Positions 12,494 to 63,990 are shown, counted from the stretch's first letter. The stretch: 64,000 nt of DNA from an uncultured Candidatus Saccharibacteria bacterium (GCA_964392285.1 CAYMOW010000002.1:1-64000); one strand, 5' to 3'. Made by a program: numbers and translations. Notes: generated by a model not told the origin, from the sequence alone.

Positions 12494-12575
12494 GCTGGGG
12501 TGGCGTAATTGGTAGCCGCGCTAGTCTTAGGAACTAGTGGAGTAATCCGTGGGAGTTCAAGTCTCCCCCCCAGCA
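12494..12575 (+). tRNA. tRNA-Leu (TAG), long variable arm
   Basis: Acceptor GCTGGGG/CCCCAGC, anticodon stem CTAGT/ACTAG with loop CTTAGGA, variable arm GGAGTAATCCGT, T-arm GGGAG-TTCAAGT-CTCCC. Confidence 0.8.
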
Positions 12576-12706
12576 CAGATTGAGCACGGCGAAAGCTGTG
12601 CTGGGGGTGCAGCTTTATGCAATAAAGCGTAGCACTGACTTGAAAGCCGGAGCGCGACGGCGCGAGGCGGGGTCGACCAAATTTTCAGCAGAAAATTATG
12701 GGTGAC

Positions 12707-12726
12707 CAAGTCTCCCCCCCAGCACA
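12707..12726 (+). repeat. direct repeat of the tRNA-Leu(TAG) 3' end (CAAGTCTCCCCCCCAGCACA)
   Basis: 20-nt exact copy of 12558..12577, about 130 nt downstream of the tRNA. The 12205..12700 region also carries three copies of a GCCGGAGCG...GCGAGGCGGG module and AAAATTAT[CG][CG]GTGA[CT]GAC modules. Confidence 0.6.
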
Positions 12727-12768
12727 AATGCAAAACTCGCCTTTTGGGCGAGTTTTGCATTTTGTGAT

Positions 12769-13094
12769 CCTCATTCTCATAAGCCGAATTCTGTTTCTTT
12801 GCAATAATTTATCTAGGTCCTAGATTGCTCTAGGACTCGAGCGGCACTCCCCTCGATTGCTTTCGGGGCACGGCCTTGCACAGAAGTAAGAGTTTAGTCG
12901 TTGCACCCGTATGTTGCCATACGATTACTCCACAAGGGAGCTCCTTGCCTTTCGGCTTGGACGTCACTGTTCGCATCTCGCGCCTCACGGCGGACGGGCA
13001 TTACCCGCTACTTGGCTCTCCAATCGAAATTGGAGCTGTGTTCGGACTTTCCTCTCCGACTAAAACGTCGGAGCTATTGCTCGGAATGAGAATC
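12769..13094 (-). ncRNA. rnpB: RNase P RNA (rnpB) candidate
   Basis: The minus-strand RNA contains the universal CR-I-like GAGAGGAAAGUCCGAAC near its 5' end and a CR-V-like AACAGAAUUCGGCUUAU near its 3' end. The P4 partners are GUCCGAA and UUCGGCU. The terminal P1 pairing is UCUCAUUC...GAGAAUGAG. The whole is about 326 nt and GC-rich. Confidence 0.6.
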
Positions 13095-28589: not shown

Positions 28590-29771
28590 ATGATAATTCT
28601 GGGTATAGAGACAAGTTGTGATGAGACGGCAATCAGTGTCGTCAGAGCAGAGGGCGATGTCGACAAGCCGGTTTTTGAGGTGCTTGGAAGCAGTGTTCAG
28701 AGTCAGATTGATATTCACAAAGAATACGGTGGCGTCTTCCCCACCCTCGCCAAACGTGAGCACATCATAAATTTGCCTGCTGTTTTAATTGAGGCACTTA
28801 GGAAGGCAAATTTAATTTCCAATTTTCATTTTTCAATTTTCAATGAATCACAAAACCCCGAGGAGGTCTGGCAAGATTTTTTTGATAAATTGCCAAAAGT
28901 AGATGTCGACATGATTGCTGTAACCGTTGGCCCAGGACTCGAACCCGCCCTGTGGACAGGTATAAACTTCGCCCAAGAGCTGGGGAAAAGATGTGGAAAA
29001 CCTGTGGTTCCAACCAATCACATGTTGGGCCATATTGCTTCGGTGCTATTGAACAAACAAATAACCTTTCCAGCTATCGCCCTACTTGTAAGTGGCGGCC
29101 ACACTGAACTGGTCTTACTCAAAAGTTGGGCTGACAAAAAGAAAATCGGCGAAACTCAAGACGACGCGGTCGGCGAAGCTTTCGATAAGGTAGCTAGGAT
29201 GCTTGGCCTGCCCTATCCGGGTGGACCAGAAATTTCCAAACTAGCCGAAGAAGCCCGGATTCAAAATATTAACCTGGAGAAAAAGTTACCAAGACCAATG
29301 ATTAATTCTGGTGATTTTAATTTTTCTTTTTCGGGTTTAAAAACTGCTGTTTTGTATTATTTGAGAGACCTGACCTCACCCCTGACAATGGGTCCTCTTC
29401 CGTCTGGAATTCCCTCCCCTGATCAAGGGGAGGGATCAAAGGGTGGGGTGTCTTTTCAGACAAAATTAGCCGTAGCGCGAGAATTTGAAGACTCGGTCAT
29501 CGAAACTCTACTAAGCAAAACTCGCAAAGCTATCGATGCTCATTCGCCAAAAAGTTTGATCATTGGCGGTGGTGTCATCGCCAACAAAGCTCTGCGAGAA
29601 AACTTTCTCAAACTCAAAGAAGTCTACCCCAACCTCGAAATTTTCATACCCGAAAGAGAACTCACGACCGACAACGCCACCATGATCGCAATGGCCGGAT
29701 TTATAGAATACTTGCAAAATAAAACCGAAATACCCGCCAAGCTCGAAGCTCGCGGGTATTTGGAAATCTAA
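28590..29771 (+). CDS. tsaD: tRNA N6-adenosine threonylcarbamoyltransferase TsaD (Kae1/OSGEP family)
   Basis: MIILGIETSCDETAISVV start 2 nt after tRNA-Ser (the table ORF begins inside the tRNA); HMLGHI, SGGV, and a C-terminal ASKD fold. Contains an extra segment, roughly 40 aa, EALRKANLISNFHFSIFNESQ.... Confidence 0.85.
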   Translation: MIILGIETSCDETAISVVRAEGDVDKPVFEVLGSSVQSQIDIHKEYGGVFPTLAKREHIINLPAVLIEALRKANLISNFHFSIFNESQNPEEVWQDFFDKLPKVDVDMIAVTVGPGLEPALWTGINFAQELGKRCGKPVVPTNHMLGHIASVLLNKQITFPAIALLVSGGHTELVLLKSWADKKKIGETQDDAVGEAFDKVARMLGLPYPGGPEISKLAEEARIQNINLEKKLPRPMINSGDFNFSFSGLKTAVLYYLRDLTSPLTMGPLPSGIPSPDQGEGSKGGVSFQTKLAVAREFEDSVIETLLSKTRKAIDAHSPKSLIIGGGVIANKALRENFLKLKEVYPNLEIFIPERELTTDNATMIAMAGFIEYLQNKTEIPAKLEARGYLEI

Positions 29772-38393: not shown

Positions 38394-40040
<1,647 letters not shown>

Positions 40041-40144
40041 TTACAATTTTCAGTTTTCAATTTTCATTAAATTTCCAATTTCTCAATGTTTGAAAATTAG
40101 AAGATTTAATCATTTATTGAAAATTTTAAATTATAAATTGAAAA

Positions 40145-40498
40145 TTAATTGATAATTGCCAATATATTCTCCTCCTTCAAAATGTAATATTCTTCGCCTG
40201 CGTATTTTATTTCATCATAACCGTAGCGAGAAAAGACGACCCGATCACCAACCTTGACCGAAGGTTTGATCAAAACCCCATCATCCCACCTGCCCTCGCC
40301 CACCGCTACAACCTTGCCTTGCTCAGGCTTTTCCTTATTAACAGTGTCGGGAATAATAATACCCGAAGCTCTTTTATCGCCGATCTCTTCTGAAGCCAAA
40401 GGCCTCAAAACCACTCGATCGCCCAAAGGCCATAAGCCAAAAGTCGATCCGGACTTGGCTACAGACTTGTTTGTTTTTTTCTTTAATGGCTTTTTCAT
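40145..40498 (-). CDS. groES: co-chaperonin GroES (with a roughly 20-aa basic N-terminal extension in this ORF)
   Basis: LWPLGDRVVLRPLASEE...GKVVAVGEGR...GDRVVFSRYG. Confidence 0.85.
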   Translation of the reverse strand: MKKPLKKKTNKSVAKSGSTFGLWPLGDRVVLRPLASEEIGDKRASGIIIPDTVNKEKPEQGKVVAVGEGRWDDGVLIKPSVKVGDRVVFSRYGYDEIKYAGEEYYILKEENILAIIN

Positions 40499-50707: not shown

Positions 50708-50845
50708 ATTTTTGAAAATTGAAAATTATAAATTGATAATTCTATACTATACCCCCCTAGGGTATTAGTCAAGTCAAACCAAAACCACTTCTGGGGATAA
50801 TCCAAAAGTGGTTTTGGCCGGTTTCGGCTTTGGTCGAACCAGAGA

Positions 50846-61364: not shown

Positions 61365-61474
61365 AGTGGTTTAATTTTCAATTTTTAATTTAGAATTTTC
61401 AACAAATGATTTAATTTAAAATTTATAAACATTGAAAATTTAATGAAAATTGATAATTGATAATTCTAAATTTC

Positions 61475-62188
61475 TTAAAGTATGTATTTTCCAGTTGGAT
61501 CGTCTCTTATAATCTTGCCGTTTTGCATCGTAATCACCCTTTTACCGATCGAGTCGATCACCCCCTTGTTGTGAGTGGTTAAAATCACGGTCGTGCCCAG
61601 ATCGTTGATACGTTTCAAAATTTCGACAATATCGTAGGTGTTGACCGGGTCGAGGTTGCCAGTCGGCTCGTCGGCAATAATGATATCCGGCTGATTGACA
61701 ATCGCCCGCGCGATCGCCACCCTCTGCTTTTCACCGCCCGAAAGTTCGTTTGGAAAATTCCAAATTTTTGGTCCAAGATCCACAAGCTCCAAAACATGCG
61801 GCACATCAGACTCAATCTCCTCATCGCTCCGACCAGCCGCTTCCATAGCAAAAGCGATATTTTCGAAAACATTTTTTTGCGGTAGAAGACGAAAATCTTG
61901 GAAGACAGCGCCAATCTTGCGGCGCACAAAGTTGATGTCGTCATCGTGCAAAGCGTGAATATCGGTGCCCTGCAACAAAACCTTGCCCGCAGTCGGCCGG
62001 TCTTCGGCTAAGAGCATTTTGAGCAAAGTAGTCTTGCCGGCGCCGGATGGCCCAACAATAGAGACAAATTCATTAGGTTCGACTACAAAGGAGACGCCTT
62101 CTAGGGCTACATAATCGCCATTGTATTTTTTGGATACATTATCAAAAGTAATCACAGCCTTTATTATATCACAATCCAAACAATGCAA
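61475..62188 (-). CDS. ftsE: cell-division ABC ATPase FtsE
   Basis: ITFDNVSKKY..GPSGAGKTTLLKML, LSGGEKQRVAIARA, and IIADEPTGNLD. Confidence 0.85.
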   Translation of the reverse strand: MHCLDCDIIKAVITFDNVSKKYNGDYVALEGVSFVVEPNEFVSIVGPSGAGKTTLLKMLLAEDRPTAGKVLLQGTDIHALHDDDINFVRRKIGAVFQDFRLLPQKNVFENIAFAMEAAGRSDEEIESDVPHVLELVDLGPKIWNFPNELSGGEKQRVAIARAIVNQPDIIIADEPTGNLDPVNTYDIVEILKRINDLGTTVILTTHNKGVIDSIGKRVITMQNGKIIRDDPTGKYIL

Positions 62189-62192
62189 AACT

Positions 62193-63077
62193 CTAACGGG
62201 ATTCGGCGTCTAAAAATTCTTGAATTTCACCTTGCTCTAAAACACCTTCGACATCGCTCGTCTCGACATTGGTCCGATGATCCTTGACCATCTTGTAGGG
62301 GTGGAGCACATAAGAGCGGATTTGGTTGCCCCAAGCAACTTCGGTTGTCTTGCTTATATACATTCCCTCAACTTTGCTCACTCGCTCCTCTTCGAGCGCT
62401 TTAAAAATTTTGGCCTTGAGGATAGAGAGAGCCTTTTCTTTGTTGTCAGCCTGACTACGCTCGTTGTCGGAGGAAGCACTAAGTCCGGTCGGCAGATGCA
62501 CAATCCGCACAGCCGTCTCACGCTTGTTGACGTTTTGTCCGCCGGGGCCGGAAGAACGCGAAAGTTCAATTTTCAAATCTTCATCGCGTAGTTCTATGTC
62601 TGCCTCAATCTGTTTATCAAATTTTGGTATGACCTCGACCATACTGAAGCTTGTATGCCTTTTTTGATTAGCATTGAAGGGCGAAACCCGCACTAGTCGG
62701 TGCACCCCAGACTCCTTCTTCAATACTCCATAAATATTTTTGCCACCCACCTCGACCGTTACATTCCGGAACCCTCCATGATCGTTTTGGTTTTCGTGCA
62801 AAATTTTGTAACTAAAATTGTTTTTATCAAAATATTTGAAATACATCCGCAAAAGCATCGCGCTAAAGTCTTCGGCGTCATCACCTCCTGCACCCGAAAA
62901 GATAGTCATGATAGCGTCACCCCTATCGTACTTACCCACTCCCAAAAGCTCGTCTTTGAGCCTCTGCATTTCTTTGATGATCGCCTGCGCGCGCTCCTTG
63001 TCTTCCCAAAAGCGTGGGCTTATCATCTGCGCCTCGAGCTCTTTTATCTTCTGTTCAATTTCTGCTTTTTCTGCCAT
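62193..63077 (-). CDS. prfB: peptide chain release factor 2 (short N-terminus, no frameshift site seen)
   Basis: SPF motif (VRVSPFNANQ), GGQ (SSGPGGQNVNK); 294 aa. The upstream context shows no CUU-UGA-C shift site. Confidence 0.85.
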   Translation of the reverse strand: MAEKAEIEQKIKELEAQMISPRFWEDKERAQAIIKEMQRLKDELLGVGKYDRGDAIMTIFSGAGGDDAEDFSAMLLRMYFKYFDKNNFSYKILHENQNDHGGFRNVTVEVGGKNIYGVLKKESGVHRLVRVSPFNANQKRHTSFSMVEVIPKFDKQIEADIELRDEDLKIELSRSSGPGGQNVNKRETAVRIVHLPTGLSASSDNERSQADNKEKALSILKAKIFKALEEERVSKVEGMYISKTTEVAWGNQIRSYVLHPYKMVKDHRTNVETSDVEGVLEQGEIQEFLDAESR

Positions 63078-63109
63078 TAAATCACTTTAACCCTTTTTAC
63101 CAATTTGAG

Positions 63110-63417
63110 CAAAAAAATTAAGTATGAATAAAGGGCCCCCTGGTGGAAGCCCTTTTGTGAGAGGTAAAAAACCTCTCGATGAGTGCTGGGGCGCATCGGG
63201 CGCGCCCAGGAGGTACCCTTCGCGACGCCCCCGTAAAAGAAATTGGTGTGGAGGTCGGATGAGCACCTACAGGATATCATAAACAGAAAAAAGTGCAAGC
63301 GAATCTGTGGACTGGCCGCAAAGGATACCTCTTGGTGTGTGCCGTCCCAGGCGTCCCAAAAGAGTACCTAACACCCATTGTCAAATTGCCAATGGTAGGC
63401 AACCAACCACAGATCCA
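63110..63417 (-). ncRNA. candidate roughly 300-nt structured ncRNA (identity unresolved: ssrA/ssrS/ffs-like?)
   Basis: On the minus strand there is a consensus sigma70-like promoter, TTGACA (63452..63447), a 17-nt spacer, and TATACT (63429..63424). This is followed by roughly 300 nt of GC-rich sequence (about 60% GC) with no ORF. It ends in the hairpin GGGCUUCC-ACCA-GGGGGCCC (63152..63133) plus UUUAUUCAUACUUAAUUUUUUU. Confidence 0.45.
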
Positions 63418-63493
63418 CAAGCGAGTATACACGATTATTAAACTCTGTCAAGTCCCTGTATCCGTCCACCCACCAATTTATATAAAAGAAAAG

Positions 63494-63521
63494 CCCCCGA
63501 GGCGCGCGCCAAACGCCTCGG
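63494..63521 (-). terminator. rho-independent terminator for the 63568..63990 gene
   Basis: CCCGAGGCG-CGCGCCAAA-CGCCTCGGG hairpin, followed on the minus strand by CTTTTCTTTTAT. Confidence 0.55.
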
Positions 63522-63567
63522 GAAACCTTATTGCCACCTTTTCTCCAGAAGGTGGTCCAGCCGGCGC

Positions 63568-63990
63568 TCATCGCGCCGGCGAGTGTGCAGTCGCCGAACC
63601 GCGACGACCGCGAAAAGCAGACATACCACCGTCGGCCACCCGACGAAAAACCCGAGAATTTCGAACATAAAACCCCTCCGATTTCTGAAGCCCCCATCGT
63701 AGCAGACGGAAGCAGGTTGCAGTGGCCAGGAGAGCGACGCTCCAGACCATCAAGACCGCGATTAGCTCGCCTGGATCAGCGGGCGCTTGATAGACTTGCC
63801 CCGCATCAATCCATTCCGCCATTTCTTGTCCATACTCTATGTATTTCCACCCGGCACTAATTAAAAAAAACAACCCCGGAAAGAAACACATCCAAGACAA
63901 GACCGAGCAAATGGCTCTGGAAAAACGCAGAAACCACATTGTGAGCCTCCCTGCGAACGGGATTTCCTCAAATATTATACCTAAAATCAA
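63568..63990 (-). CDS. hypothetical membrane protein with a basic C-terminal tail
   Basis: A hydrophobic N-terminal two-thirds and an Arg-rich tail; a terminator lies downstream. Confidence 0.35.
   Translation of the reverse strand: MILGIIFEEIPFAGRLTMWFLRFSRAICSVLSWMCFFPGLFFLISAGWKYIEYGQEMAEWIDAGQVYQAPADPGELIAVLMVWSVALLATATCFRLLRWGLQKSEGFYVRNSRVFRRVADGGMSAFRGRRGSATAHSPAR

What the first reader, a model, noticed from the sequence alone, without database searches (positions are those of the whole stretch)
63100..63460. Promoter-to-terminator unit encoding a roughly 300-nt GC-rich RNA upstream of prfB
Minus strand: TTGACA-17 nt-TATACT (63452..63424), then about 300 nt at roughly 60% GC with no credible ORF (the table ORFs here have no RBS and odd composition). 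This ends in the GGGCUUCC-ACCA-GGGGGCCC hairpin plus a U-tract about 25 nt before the prfB RBS. The interior contains ...GGUGCUCAUCCGACCUCCACACCA..., a tRNA-3'-end-like string. Candidates are tmRNA (possibly permuted), 6S RNA, a long SRP RNA, or a novel sRNA. I could not match the textbook motifs by eye. The RNase P RNA candidate lies elsewhere (12.8-13.1 kb), so this is a different RNA.
Basis: seen in the sequence. Interest (0 to 1): 0.65.

Follow-up and report, generated by a model that had tools for sequence, protein, structure and literature searches.

The report
Two tandem small RNA genes
The stretch upstream of the release-factor gene prfB in this Patescibacteria contig is a real non-coding RNA locus, but it is not tmRNA, 6S or SRP RNA: it most likely holds two small, tightly folded RNAs of unknown function, found only in one narrow clade, whose sequences vary far more than their flanks.

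Summary
The promoter, the ORF-free structured stretch, the terminal hairpin and the "CCACACCA" string are all present on the minus strand. GC is 53%, not about 60%; the promoter spacer is 16 nt, not 17; the final U-tract is weak. Rfam (gathering and E<=10) and ARAGORN find no tmRNA, 6S, SRP or other known family, here or in relatives.

Seven relatives (prfB 89-94% identical, or ORF A 76-86%) keep the same layout:
- terminator of a small membrane-peptide operon;
- near-consensus promoter P1;
- RNA1, whose 5' end pairs with its 3' end (12 pairs, 8 with changes on both sides) and whose apex carries a GGGAC(G)GGACGC motif;
- a conserved weak promoter-like element, P2;
- RNA2, a run of hairpins ending in a terminator;
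- prfB's own -10 box 6 nt before its ATG, so prfB is probably leaderless.

So this is an independent RNA locus, not a prfB leader, and most likely two units. In the window RNA1's terminator lacks an adjacent U-run, so a fused transcript of about 300 nt is possible.

Against L095 the flanks are 90-100% identical but the RNA bodies only 30-65%. Three cassette types are distributed incongruently with both flanks, which indicates recombination. Function is unknown; no pairing with neighbouring mRNAs exceeds chance. There are no expression data.

The parts
63484..63524 (-). T0: intrinsic terminator of the upstream small membrane-protein operon (ORF A 63938-63568, ORF B 63668-63528). It forms the upstream boundary of the RNA locus.
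   Evidence: 12-bp stem with 8 GC pairs plus CUUUUCUUUU. 100% identical in L095.
63424..63451 (-). P1 promoter: TTGACA, 16-nt spacer, TATACT.
   Evidence: 11 of 12 matches. Only perfect -35 hexamer among the near-consensus sites in the window. TTGAC(A/G) and TATAnT are kept in all 8 variants; L085 scores 12 of 12.
63285..63418 (-). RNA1, about 120-135 nt. The closing stem pairs 63418-63399 with 63318-63298. Hairpin A is 63395-63375 and hairpin B is 63368-63323, carrying GGGACGC (63357-63351) and GGGACGG (63348-63342). The U-run is at 63292-63287, 6 nt after the 12-bp core of the closing stem (which ends at 63299).
   Evidence: MFE -50.9 kcal/mol, z = -3.8. A 5'/3' closing stem is present in all 8 variants, 98% paired, with 8 of 12 pairs changed on both sides. 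The apical GGAC...GGACGC motif is present in all variants.
63271..63298 (-). P2 candidate promoter: TTGCAC (63298-63293), 16-nt spacer, TATCCT (63276-63271).
   Evidence: TTG[CT]nn-16/17-TAnnnT sits at the equivalent position in all 8 variants. It arises in 3% of shuffles of the 81-nt region. It falls below the threshold of the consensus scan.
63111..63268 (-). RNA2, about 140 nt. H1 is 63268-63211; its 5' arm and loop hold the 'tRNA-like' string 63267-63244. H2 is a GC hairpin at 63209-63186. The linker is CACUCAUC. H3 is 63177-63159. H4, the terminator hairpin, is 63155-63130, followed by a U-rich tail to 63111.
   Evidence: MFE -67.3 kcal/mol, z = -5.25. L095 keeps H1-H4; H3 and H4 are identical, while H1 and H2 differ in sequence but still fold.
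63075..63112 (-). prfB's own promoter-like element and start codon: TTGCTC (63112-63107), 17-nt spacer, TAAAGT (63089-63084), 6 nt, then ATG at 63077.
   Evidence: GGTTAAAGTG and the 6-nt distance are invariant in all variants, and TTG lies 17 nt upstream in all. No SD. Of 51 loci with relatives' prfB genes, 25 have TAnnnT 5-8 nt before the ATG, and many others have the ATG abutting a tRNA 3' end.

Best explanation
The region is a clade-restricted non-coding RNA locus. It lies between a small membrane-peptide operon and a probably leaderless prfB.

It most likely encodes two tandem small RNAs:
- RNA1 (about 63418-63285) is transcribed from the near-consensus promoter P1. It folds so that its first nucleotides pair with its last ones. 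In the window and L095 this gives a three-way junction; in the other relatives it gives a rod. A conserved GGGAC(G)GGACGC motif sits in the apical part.
- RNA2 (about 63265-63125) is probably transcribed from the weaker promoter P2. It is a chain of four hairpins ending in the GGGCUUCC/GGGGGCCC terminator.

Shown here: the layout, the structure, the absence of coding signal, and the mosaic evolution. The RNA bodies form a hypervariable cassette that has been swapped between lineages by recombination.

Inferred: both are stable, trans-acting regulatory or protein-binding small RNAs. RNA1's paired ends would protect it from exonucleases, and its conserved apical loop would be the contact surface. 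They do not control prfB translation, because prfB starts at its own -10 box.
For: - Promoter P1 scores 11 of 12 and is the best in the window. It is conserved in all 8 variants.
- Structure z-scores run from -2.9 to -5.5 for RNA1 in the window and six relatives; the L095 fold (z = -1.5) was truncated and omitted its 5' arm. RNA2 gives -5.3 in the window and -5.0 in L095.
- The closing stem of RNA1 starts about 6 nt after the -10 box in every variant, despite unrelated sequences. It is 98% paired; 8 of 12 pairs changed on both sides; no shuffle reached the covariation score.
- Six of 8 variants end RNA1 with an 11-12 bp stem directly followed by a U-rich run (UUUUUU or UUUUCUUUU).
- The P2 motif is present in all 8.
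- The region is non-coding. The window/L095 alignment has indels of 9, 2, 5, 16, 5, 1, 8, 4, 1, 5 and 3 nt, and no frame is conserved.
- prfB is probably leaderless from its own promoter.
- Hypervariability: the flanks are 90-100% identical while 63490-63195 is 30-65%.
- Cassette types are incongruent with both flanks.
Against: - There are no expression data at all.
- P2 is weak (3 of 6 and 4 of 6 hexamer matches) and fell below the scan threshold.
- In the window and L095, RNA1's stem is followed by UUGCAC before the U-run, so termination there may be poor.
- Sequence-only leave-one-out profiles do not recover the window's RNA1. Its homology therefore rests on position, architecture and short motifs.
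- The stem arms used for covariation were hand-extracted from each sequence's own fold, which biases the count towards pairing.
- No target was found.
- Only 8 variants exist, some on very short contigs, so chimeric assembly cannot be fully excluded as a source of the mosaic pattern.
Confidence: 0.55

Rival explanations
1. A single RNA of about 300 nt. P1 drives one transcript through both domains to the H4 terminator. P2 is not a promoter, and the RNA1 stem is an internal domain rather than a terminator.
For: In the window and L095 the RNA1 stem is not directly followed by a U-run. P2 is a weak match. The whole 301 nt folds with z = -5.0.
Against: Six of 8 relatives have a canonical stem plus U-run after RNA1. 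The TTGC -35-like element and TAnnnT at 16-17 nt are kept in all 8 amid heavy divergence. Judged by eye from the sequences, the apex of RNA1 and the body of RNA2 change independently between related variants.
Confidence: 0.28
2. A known housekeeping RNA too diverged for the models: tmRNA (possibly permuted), 6S RNA or SRP RNA.
For: A strong promoter and paired 5'/3' ends are typical of stable RNAs. The string ...CCUCCACACCA is followed 11 nt later by GGGGGCG, which superficially recalls a permuted tmRNA.
Against: - No Rfam hit even at E<=10, in the window or in five relatives. ARAGORN finds none.
- GGGGGCG cannot pair with CCUCCAC. There is no G3:U70, no T-loop consensus and no tag frame ending in AA-stop.
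- The CCA string is not conserved in L095 or any other relative.
- The locus is absent from relatives with prfB at 82% identity or less. Housekeeping RNAs are not clade-restricted and hypervariable.
- RNA1 at 85-106 nt lacks a 6S central bubble.
Confidence: 0.03
3. A long regulatory 5' leader or attenuator of prfB. Transcription from P1 or P2 reads through conditional terminators into prfB.
For: The locus lies immediately upstream of prfB in all 8 variants. Hairpins followed by U-rich runs could act as attenuators. A further hairpin overlapping the prfB -35 shows compensatory changes.
Against: - prfB has an invariant TAAAGT box exactly 6 nt before its ATG, a TTG 17 nt upstream, and no SD. Its relatives are likewise leaderless or tRNA-abutted.
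- A leadered transcript without an SD would translate poorly.
- No riboswitch, T-box or leader family matches.
- Neither RNA pairs with the prfB 5' end above chance in most loci.
- Relatives with prfB at 82% identity or less lack the leader entirely.
Confidence: 0.07
4. A type I toxin-antitoxin-like module. The 46-aa hydrophobic, Arg-tailed peptide ORF B would be a membrane toxin, and RNA1 or RNA2 its antitoxin.
For: A small one-helix peptide with a basic tail always lies just upstream of the RNAs, including in L088, which lacks ORF A. The locus sits at a tRNA-Thr integration hot spot. Hypervariability fits conflict systems.
Against: - The RNAs are in tandem on the same strand, not antisense.
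- The longest complementary runs to the ORF A/B mRNA are no better than shuffles.
- Duplex energies with the ORF B start region give z between -1.2 and +2.5.
- RNA cassette type does not co-vary with the peptide region.
- There is no Pfam or PADLOC match.
Confidence: 0.06
5. A non-functional remnant of an integrated element: promoter-like and hairpin sequences drifting without selection.
For: The locus is clade-restricted, lies next to tRNA-Thr where other cargo has inserted, diverges very fast, and has no identifiable target or family.
Against: P1 stays near-consensus and the closing stem is maintained by compensatory changes across unrelated sequences. The apical motif, the P2 -35 and the terminators are conserved islands inside the divergent stretch. 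Every variant folds far better than shuffles.
Confidence: 0.1

Closest known systems
Rho-independent-terminated trans-acting bacterial sRNAs. The best, non-significant Rfam hit was alphaproteobacterial alpha-r15 (RF02345).
   Same: Own promoter, 100-150 nt, several hairpins, a terminal GC hairpin with a U-rich tail, an intergenic location, narrow phylogenetic range and fast sequence turnover.
   Different: The score is 22.8 bits against a gathering score of 40, E = 0.029, so it is not a member. No target or seed was identified. CCUCC motifs are not significantly enriched (P = 0.07). RNA1's fully paired 5' end is unusual for seed-at-5'-end sRNAs.
4.5S/SRP RNA and 6S RNA (stable rod-like RNAs whose 5' and 3' ends pair)
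   Same: RNA1 is a strongly promoted rod or three-way junction. Its termini form the basal helix and it has a conserved apical element.
   Different: There is no domain IV motif or GNRA tetraloop context and no central bubble. RNA1 is 85-135 nt. No Rfam hit at E<=10. It is clade-restricted and hypervariable, whereas SRP and 6S RNAs are near-universal and conserved.
tmRNA (one-piece or permuted two-piece)
   Same: Only superficial: a ...CCACACCA string, a downstream GGGGG run and high GC.
   Different: No acceptor stem, T-arm, G3:U70 or tag ORF. ARAGORN and Rfam are negative. The string is not conserved in relatives.
Type I toxin-antitoxin loci (for example tisB/istR-1, zorO/orzO)
   Same: A small hydrophobic peptide gene lies next to one or more separately promoted small RNAs, in a variable genomic islet.
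   Different: The orientation is tandem. No complementarity above chance was found, and the peptide and RNA types do not co-vary.

Membership tests
tmRNA | Detected by ARAGORN or by the Rfam tmRNA models (standard, alpha, beta, cyano permuted). | tested here: not met
   ARAGORN reports 9 tRNAs and no tmRNA. Rfam finds nothing at gathering thresholds or at E<=10.
tmRNA | A tRNA-like domain: a 7-bp acceptor stem with G3:U70, a T-arm and a 3' ACCA. | tested here: not met
   CCUCCAC before ACCA cannot pair with GGGGGCG. The transcript 5' end GUGGAUC gives at most 5 pairs, with no G:U at position 3. The candidate T-loop UGCUCAU matches the consensus at 4 of 7 positions (read). No similarity to any tRNA.
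tmRNA | A tag-peptide reading frame ending in ...AA-stop. | tested here: not met
   In all three frames the peptides before stop codons end in LAI, DIL, NGC, FCL and IHT.
6S RNA | A rod of about 150-200 nt with a large central bubble mimicking an open promoter; Rfam RF00013 and related models. | tested here: not met
   No Rfam hit at E<=10. RNA1 in relatives is 85-106 nt with internal loops of at most about 7 nt. The window's RNA1 is a three-way junction.
Bacterial SRP (4.5S) RNA | The conserved domain IV (helix 8) loops with a GNRA tetraloop; Rfam RF00169/RF01854. | tested here: not met
   No Rfam hit at E<=10 in the window or in 5 relatives. The apex carries GGGACGGACGC instead.
Riboswitch / T-box / leader attenuator of prfB | A match to a known cis-regulatory family, and a downstream gene that depends on the leader transcript. 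| tested here: not met
   No family match. prfB has its own invariant -10 box 6 nt before the ATG, and no SD.
Type I toxin-antitoxin | The antitoxin RNA base-pairs with the toxin mRNA, by antisense overlap or by at least about 15-20 nt of complementarity in trans. | tested here: not met
   The RNAs are on the same strand and in tandem. Complementary runs and duplex energies are no better than shuffles.
Type I toxin-antitoxin | The small peptide is toxic when expressed. | not testable with these tools
   This needs an expression experiment.
Independent sRNA gene (generic) | Own promoter, own terminator, no coding signal, and structure conserved by compensatory change. | tested here: met
   P1, terminators, non-triplet indels, covariation in the closing stem.
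Independent sRNA gene (generic) | The transcript is detected with defined 5' and 3' ends. | not testable with these tools
   No transcriptome data are available.

The most novel reading that the evidence does not exclude
The locus is a hypervariable small-RNA cassette shuffled by recombination and kept under diversifying or balancing selection. There are three allele types that are incongruent with their near-identical flanks. It is carried with a small membrane peptide at a tRNA-Thr integration hot spot. On this reading it would be an RNA-based conflict, immunity or addiction module, or a host-interaction RNA, in episymbiotic Patescibacteria, working by a mechanism unlike the antisense pairing of known type I systems.
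Probability: 0.1. Interest if true: 0.7.

Novelty: new member of a known kind. Interest (0 to 1): 0.35.

Why it matters
I found no described regulatory RNAs from Patescibacteria (Candidate Phyla Radiation) in two literature searches. Their reduced genomes leave little room for non-essential sequence. That makes a strongly promoted, structurally maintained and fast-evolving RNA pair a concrete candidate for the first lineage-specific riboregulators in this group.

The sharp contrast between identical flanks and scrambled RNA bodies, together with cassette swapping, suggests selection for diversity. This could be tested with population metagenomics.

The work also removes a false lead, since this is not the organism's tmRNA, 6S or SRP RNA. 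It further indicates that prfB in this lineage is expressed as a leaderless mRNA.

Tried and rejected
- Rfam at gathering thresholds over the whole window, and at E<=10 over 62900-63700 and five relatives. Only spurious terminator-like hits appeared: ar15 at E = 0.029, and ctRNA_p42d.
- ARAGORN for tmRNA: none.
- nhmmer of the window region against 80 prfB loci from GTDB genomes: no hit. Profiles of RNA1 and RNA2 against all 98 held sequences (0.8 Mb) found no copies outside the 8 variants.
- Leave-one-out sequence profiles did not recover the window's RNA1.
- Two metagenome pattern scans, one for the prfB start block and one for the RNA2 terminator of relatives: 0 hits each.
- BLAST against phages and plasmids, plus one viral-contig pattern scan: nothing.
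- Window-wide repeat search: no other copy.
- Similarity of the 'tRNA-like' string to tRNAs of the window and of relatives: none.
- Complementarity of the RNAs to the ORF A/B mRNA, the ORF B start region, the prfB 5' end, and the window-wide complement of the apical motif: all at chance level. The first long-sequence duplexfold attempt was uninformative.
- Small-ORF readings of RNA2 (AUG after GGA in the L082 type): the frames are not conserved between L082, L088 and L091, or between L085 and L089 (read).
- Pfam and PADLOC on ORF A and ORF B: nothing significant.
- A covariance model was not built. MAFFT/RNAalifold alignments captured only the closing stem.
- Two literature searches found no described Patescibacteria sRNAs.

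Full report
**What is in the sequence**

On the minus strand the window reads, 5' to 3':
- a small-protein operon: ORF A 63938-63568, overlapped by the 46-aa ORF B 63668-63528;
- a strong intrinsic terminator, T0 (63524-63494 plus CUUUUCUUUU);
- a promoter, TTGACA-16 nt-TATACT (63451-63424; 11 of 12 matches);
- about 300 nt without a credible ORF;
- the hairpin GGGCUUCC-ACCA-GGGGGCCC (63152-63133);
- the prfB ATG at 63077.

The promoter is the only site with a perfect -35 hexamer among the 12 near-consensus sites in the whole window.

The 301-nt stretch folds to -124 kcal/mol, z = -5.0. The opposite strand gives z = -3.0.

GC is 53% (52.5% in the 5' part, 58% in the 3' part). The window averages 44%, ordinary intergenic stretches 14-40%, and the RNase P RNA 51%.

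**Known families**

Rfam finds only RNase P RNA (12764-13092) and nine tRNAs at gathering thresholds.
- At E<=10 over 62900-63700 it finds nothing but terminator-like chance hits. The best is ar15, 22.8 bits against a gathering score of 40.
- ARAGORN finds no tmRNA.
- The tRNA-like string (63267-63244) has no partner for an acceptor stem and no G3:U70.
- No reading frame ends in ...AA-stop.
- The string resembles none of the tRNAs of the window or its relatives.

tmRNA, 6S and SRP RNA are therefore rejected. The same scan of five related loci is also negative.

**Organism and relatives**

prfB places the contig in Patescibacteria (Paceibacteria/Parcubacteria).
- Eighty loci from GTDB genomes (prfB 81% identical or less) show no similarity to the region.
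- In these loci prfB follows tRNA-Thr genes directly, or other cargo lies there.
- Closer relatives were reached through the protein database. prfB at 89-94% identity gave L082-L091. ORF A at 76-96% identity gave L095-L097.
- Eight distinct variants of the locus are now in hand, counting the window: window, L095, L096, L085, L089, L082, L088 and L091.
- Two pattern scans of JGI metagenomes, plus phage, plasmid and viral searches, found nothing more.

**Common layout**

All eight variants share the following:
- T0.
- CTTGACA-16/17-TATAnT. L085 scores 12 of 12.
- RNA1.
- A conserved TTG[CT]nn-16/17-TAnnnT element, P2. In the window this is TTGCAC 63298-63293 and TATCCT 63276-63271. It arises in 3% of shuffles.
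- RNA2, ending in a terminator.
- An invariant GGTTAAAGTG block, with TAAAGT ending exactly 6 nt before the prfB ATG and a TTG 17 nt upstream.

prfB has no SD. Of 51 loci with relatives' prfB genes, 25 carry TAnnnT 5-8 nt before the ATG, and many others have the ATG abutting the 3' end of tRNA-Thr. prfB is therefore probably leaderless, and the upstream RNAs are not needed as its 5' UTR.

**RNA1**

- In every variant the nucleotides about 6 nt downstream of the -10 box pair with a segment 80-115 nt further on. The sequences involved are unrelated: GUGGAUCUGUGG/CCACAGAUUCGC in the window, GAGCCUCCUAG/CUAGGAGGCUU in L085, GAGCUCCUCGCG/UGCGAGGGGCUU in L082.
- On the extracted arms, 98% of cells are paired, 8 of 12 pairs changed on both sides, and no shuffle or slid register comes close. 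The caveat is that the arms were taken from each sequence's own fold.
- The RNAs fold much better than shuffles, z = -2.9 to -5.5. The L095 fold gave only z = -1.5, but it was started too far downstream and lacks the 5' arm.
- The shapes are rods of 85-106 nt in six relatives, and three-way junctions in the window and L095.
- All carry a GGGAC(G)GGACGC-like motif in the apical region (window 63357-63342) and an AAGCUGUACCC-like 3' segment.
- In six variants the closing stem is directly followed by a U-rich run (UUUUUU or UUUUCUUUU), a terminator configuration.
- In the window and L095, about 45 nt are missing at this point. The stem there runs into the P2 -35 before the U-run, so termination may be leaky there.

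**RNA2**

- In the window it is four hairpins: H1 63268-63211, H2 63209-63186, H3 63177-63159 and the terminator H4 63155-63130 (z = -5.25).
- L095 has identical H3 and H4. Its H1 and H2 differ in sequence but fold equivalently.
- The L085/L089/L096 type shares a GC hairpin and a CAAUCAU(A)CGAG linker, but uses a different terminator, GGGCC-AAUGCUUGCGCAA-GGCCC.
- The L082/L088/L091 type is a short RNA of about 70 nt.
- The 'CCACACCA' of the window lies in the 5' arm and loop of H1. The same position in L095 reads UCCCUCCACCCCCACCACAC.

**Not coding**

The window/L095 alignment has indels of 9, 2, 5, 16, 5, 1, 8, 4, 1, 5 and 3 nt inside the RNA region. No frame is conserved across variants.

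**Hypervariability and mosaicism**

- Against L095 the flanks are 90-100% identical. T0, H3-H4 and the prfB promoter are 100% identical. Positions 63490-63195 drop to 30-65%.
- Pairwise identities define three cassette types: {window, L095}, {L096, L085, L089} and {L082, L088, L091}.
- These disagree with the upstream flank groups ({window, L095, L096} and {L085, L091, L089}).
- They also disagree with the prfB groups ({window, L082, L096, L095} and {L085, L089, L091}).
- For example, L089 and L091 have identical prfB starts but cassettes only 58% identical.
- The simplest reading is exchange of the RNA cassette by recombination. Short contigs that end at this locus fit strain heterogeneity, but they also leave room for assembly artefacts.
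- The neighbourhood is an insertion hot spot at tRNA-Thr. L089 has a 19-nt direct repeat of the tRNA 3' end, and L092 and L093 carry other cargo.

**Function**

None could be assigned.
- Complementarity of either RNA to the ORF A/B mRNA, the ORF B start region or the prfB 5' end is at chance level.
- The complement of the apical motif is not enriched in the window.
- CCUCC motifs are not significantly enriched.
- ORF A and ORF B match no Pfam or PADLOC family.

My best inference is a pair of stable, trans-acting small RNAs, acting as regulators or protein binders. A fused ~300-nt transcript is the main alternative for the window itself. Less likely are a prfB attenuator, a type I toxin-antitoxin-like module, or decaying remnant DNA.

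**Verdict**

This is a real, previously undescribed, clade-restricted small-RNA locus: a new member of a known kind. It is interesting mainly for its hypervariable, recombining character in a reduced genome.

Noticed in passing
window 63075-63112; loci L001-L094 upstream of prfB: prfB appears to be leaderless across this group. Either a TAnnnT box lies 5-8 nt before the ATG (25 of 51 loci), or the ATG abuts the 3' end of tRNA-Thr(CGU) by 0-10 nt (for example L002, L010, L021, L078, L092). In the second case tRNA processing would generate the mRNA 5' end, much like mitochondrial 'tRNA punctuation'. SD-like motifs appear in only 3 of 51 loci, and those lie inside the tRNA.
   Followed up: partly
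window 62193-63077: RF2 here is short (294 aa) and is encoded as one uninterrupted ORF. There is no upstream frame or internal UGA for the usual +1 frameshift autoregulation. Close relatives are the same.
   Followed up: no
L093 2160-2380: A second unannotated structured RNA candidate in a relative. A TTGACT-17-TATTAT promoter is followed by about 180 nt with a closing stem of about 22 bp, a branched interior and a terminator (z = -4.3). It lies between the VTT-domain gene and tRNA-Thr(GGU). There is no Rfam match.
   Followed up: partly
window 63528-63938: Two overlapping small genes are conserved in relatives. ORF A is about 123 aa and is a membrane protein; its tail is probably not real beyond ...LLRWGL.K.EG. 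ORF B is 46 aa, with one hydrophobic helix and an Arg-rich tail; its ATG lies 6-8 nt after an internal GGAGGG. L088 has only an ORF B-like peptide. There is no Pfam or PADLOC match.
   Followed up: partly
window 63091-63116; equivalent positions in L082, L085, L088, L089, L091: A small hairpin overlaps the prfB -35 and spacer. It is kept through different sequences: UUGCCCA/UGGGCAA, UUUUACCC/GGGUAAAA, and UUUUUGC/GUAAAAA in the window. Its role is unknown.
   Followed up: no
L089 1072-1090 and 1208-1226; L092 2387-2930: tRNA-Thr is an integration hot spot. L089 has a perfect 19-nt direct repeat of the tRNA-Thr(CGU) 3' end 136 nt downstream. In L092, a cysteine-rich ORF and a partial tRNA fragment are inserted between the two tRNA-Thr genes.
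   Followed up: no
window 28814-28848, 40026-40148, 50709-50741, 61371-61484: Very AT-rich (14-16% GC) intergenic repeats of the AATTTTCAATTTT type recur in direct and inverted orientation between genes, for example between ftsE and ftsX.
   Followed up: no
window 12699-12729 versus 12550-12580: A 31-nt copy (87% identical) of the 3' end of tRNA-Leu(TAG) lies 149 nt downstream of that tRNA, just before the RNase P RNA gene. The 12577-12763 spacer is unusually GC-rich at 53%.
   Followed up: no
L085 5579-5606, 5751-5778, 5935-5962: The three terminators of the locus (T0, RNA1 and RNA2) share a similar 3' tail, GGnnCUUUUCUUUUGSC. This suggests a lineage-typical terminator form.
   Followed up: no
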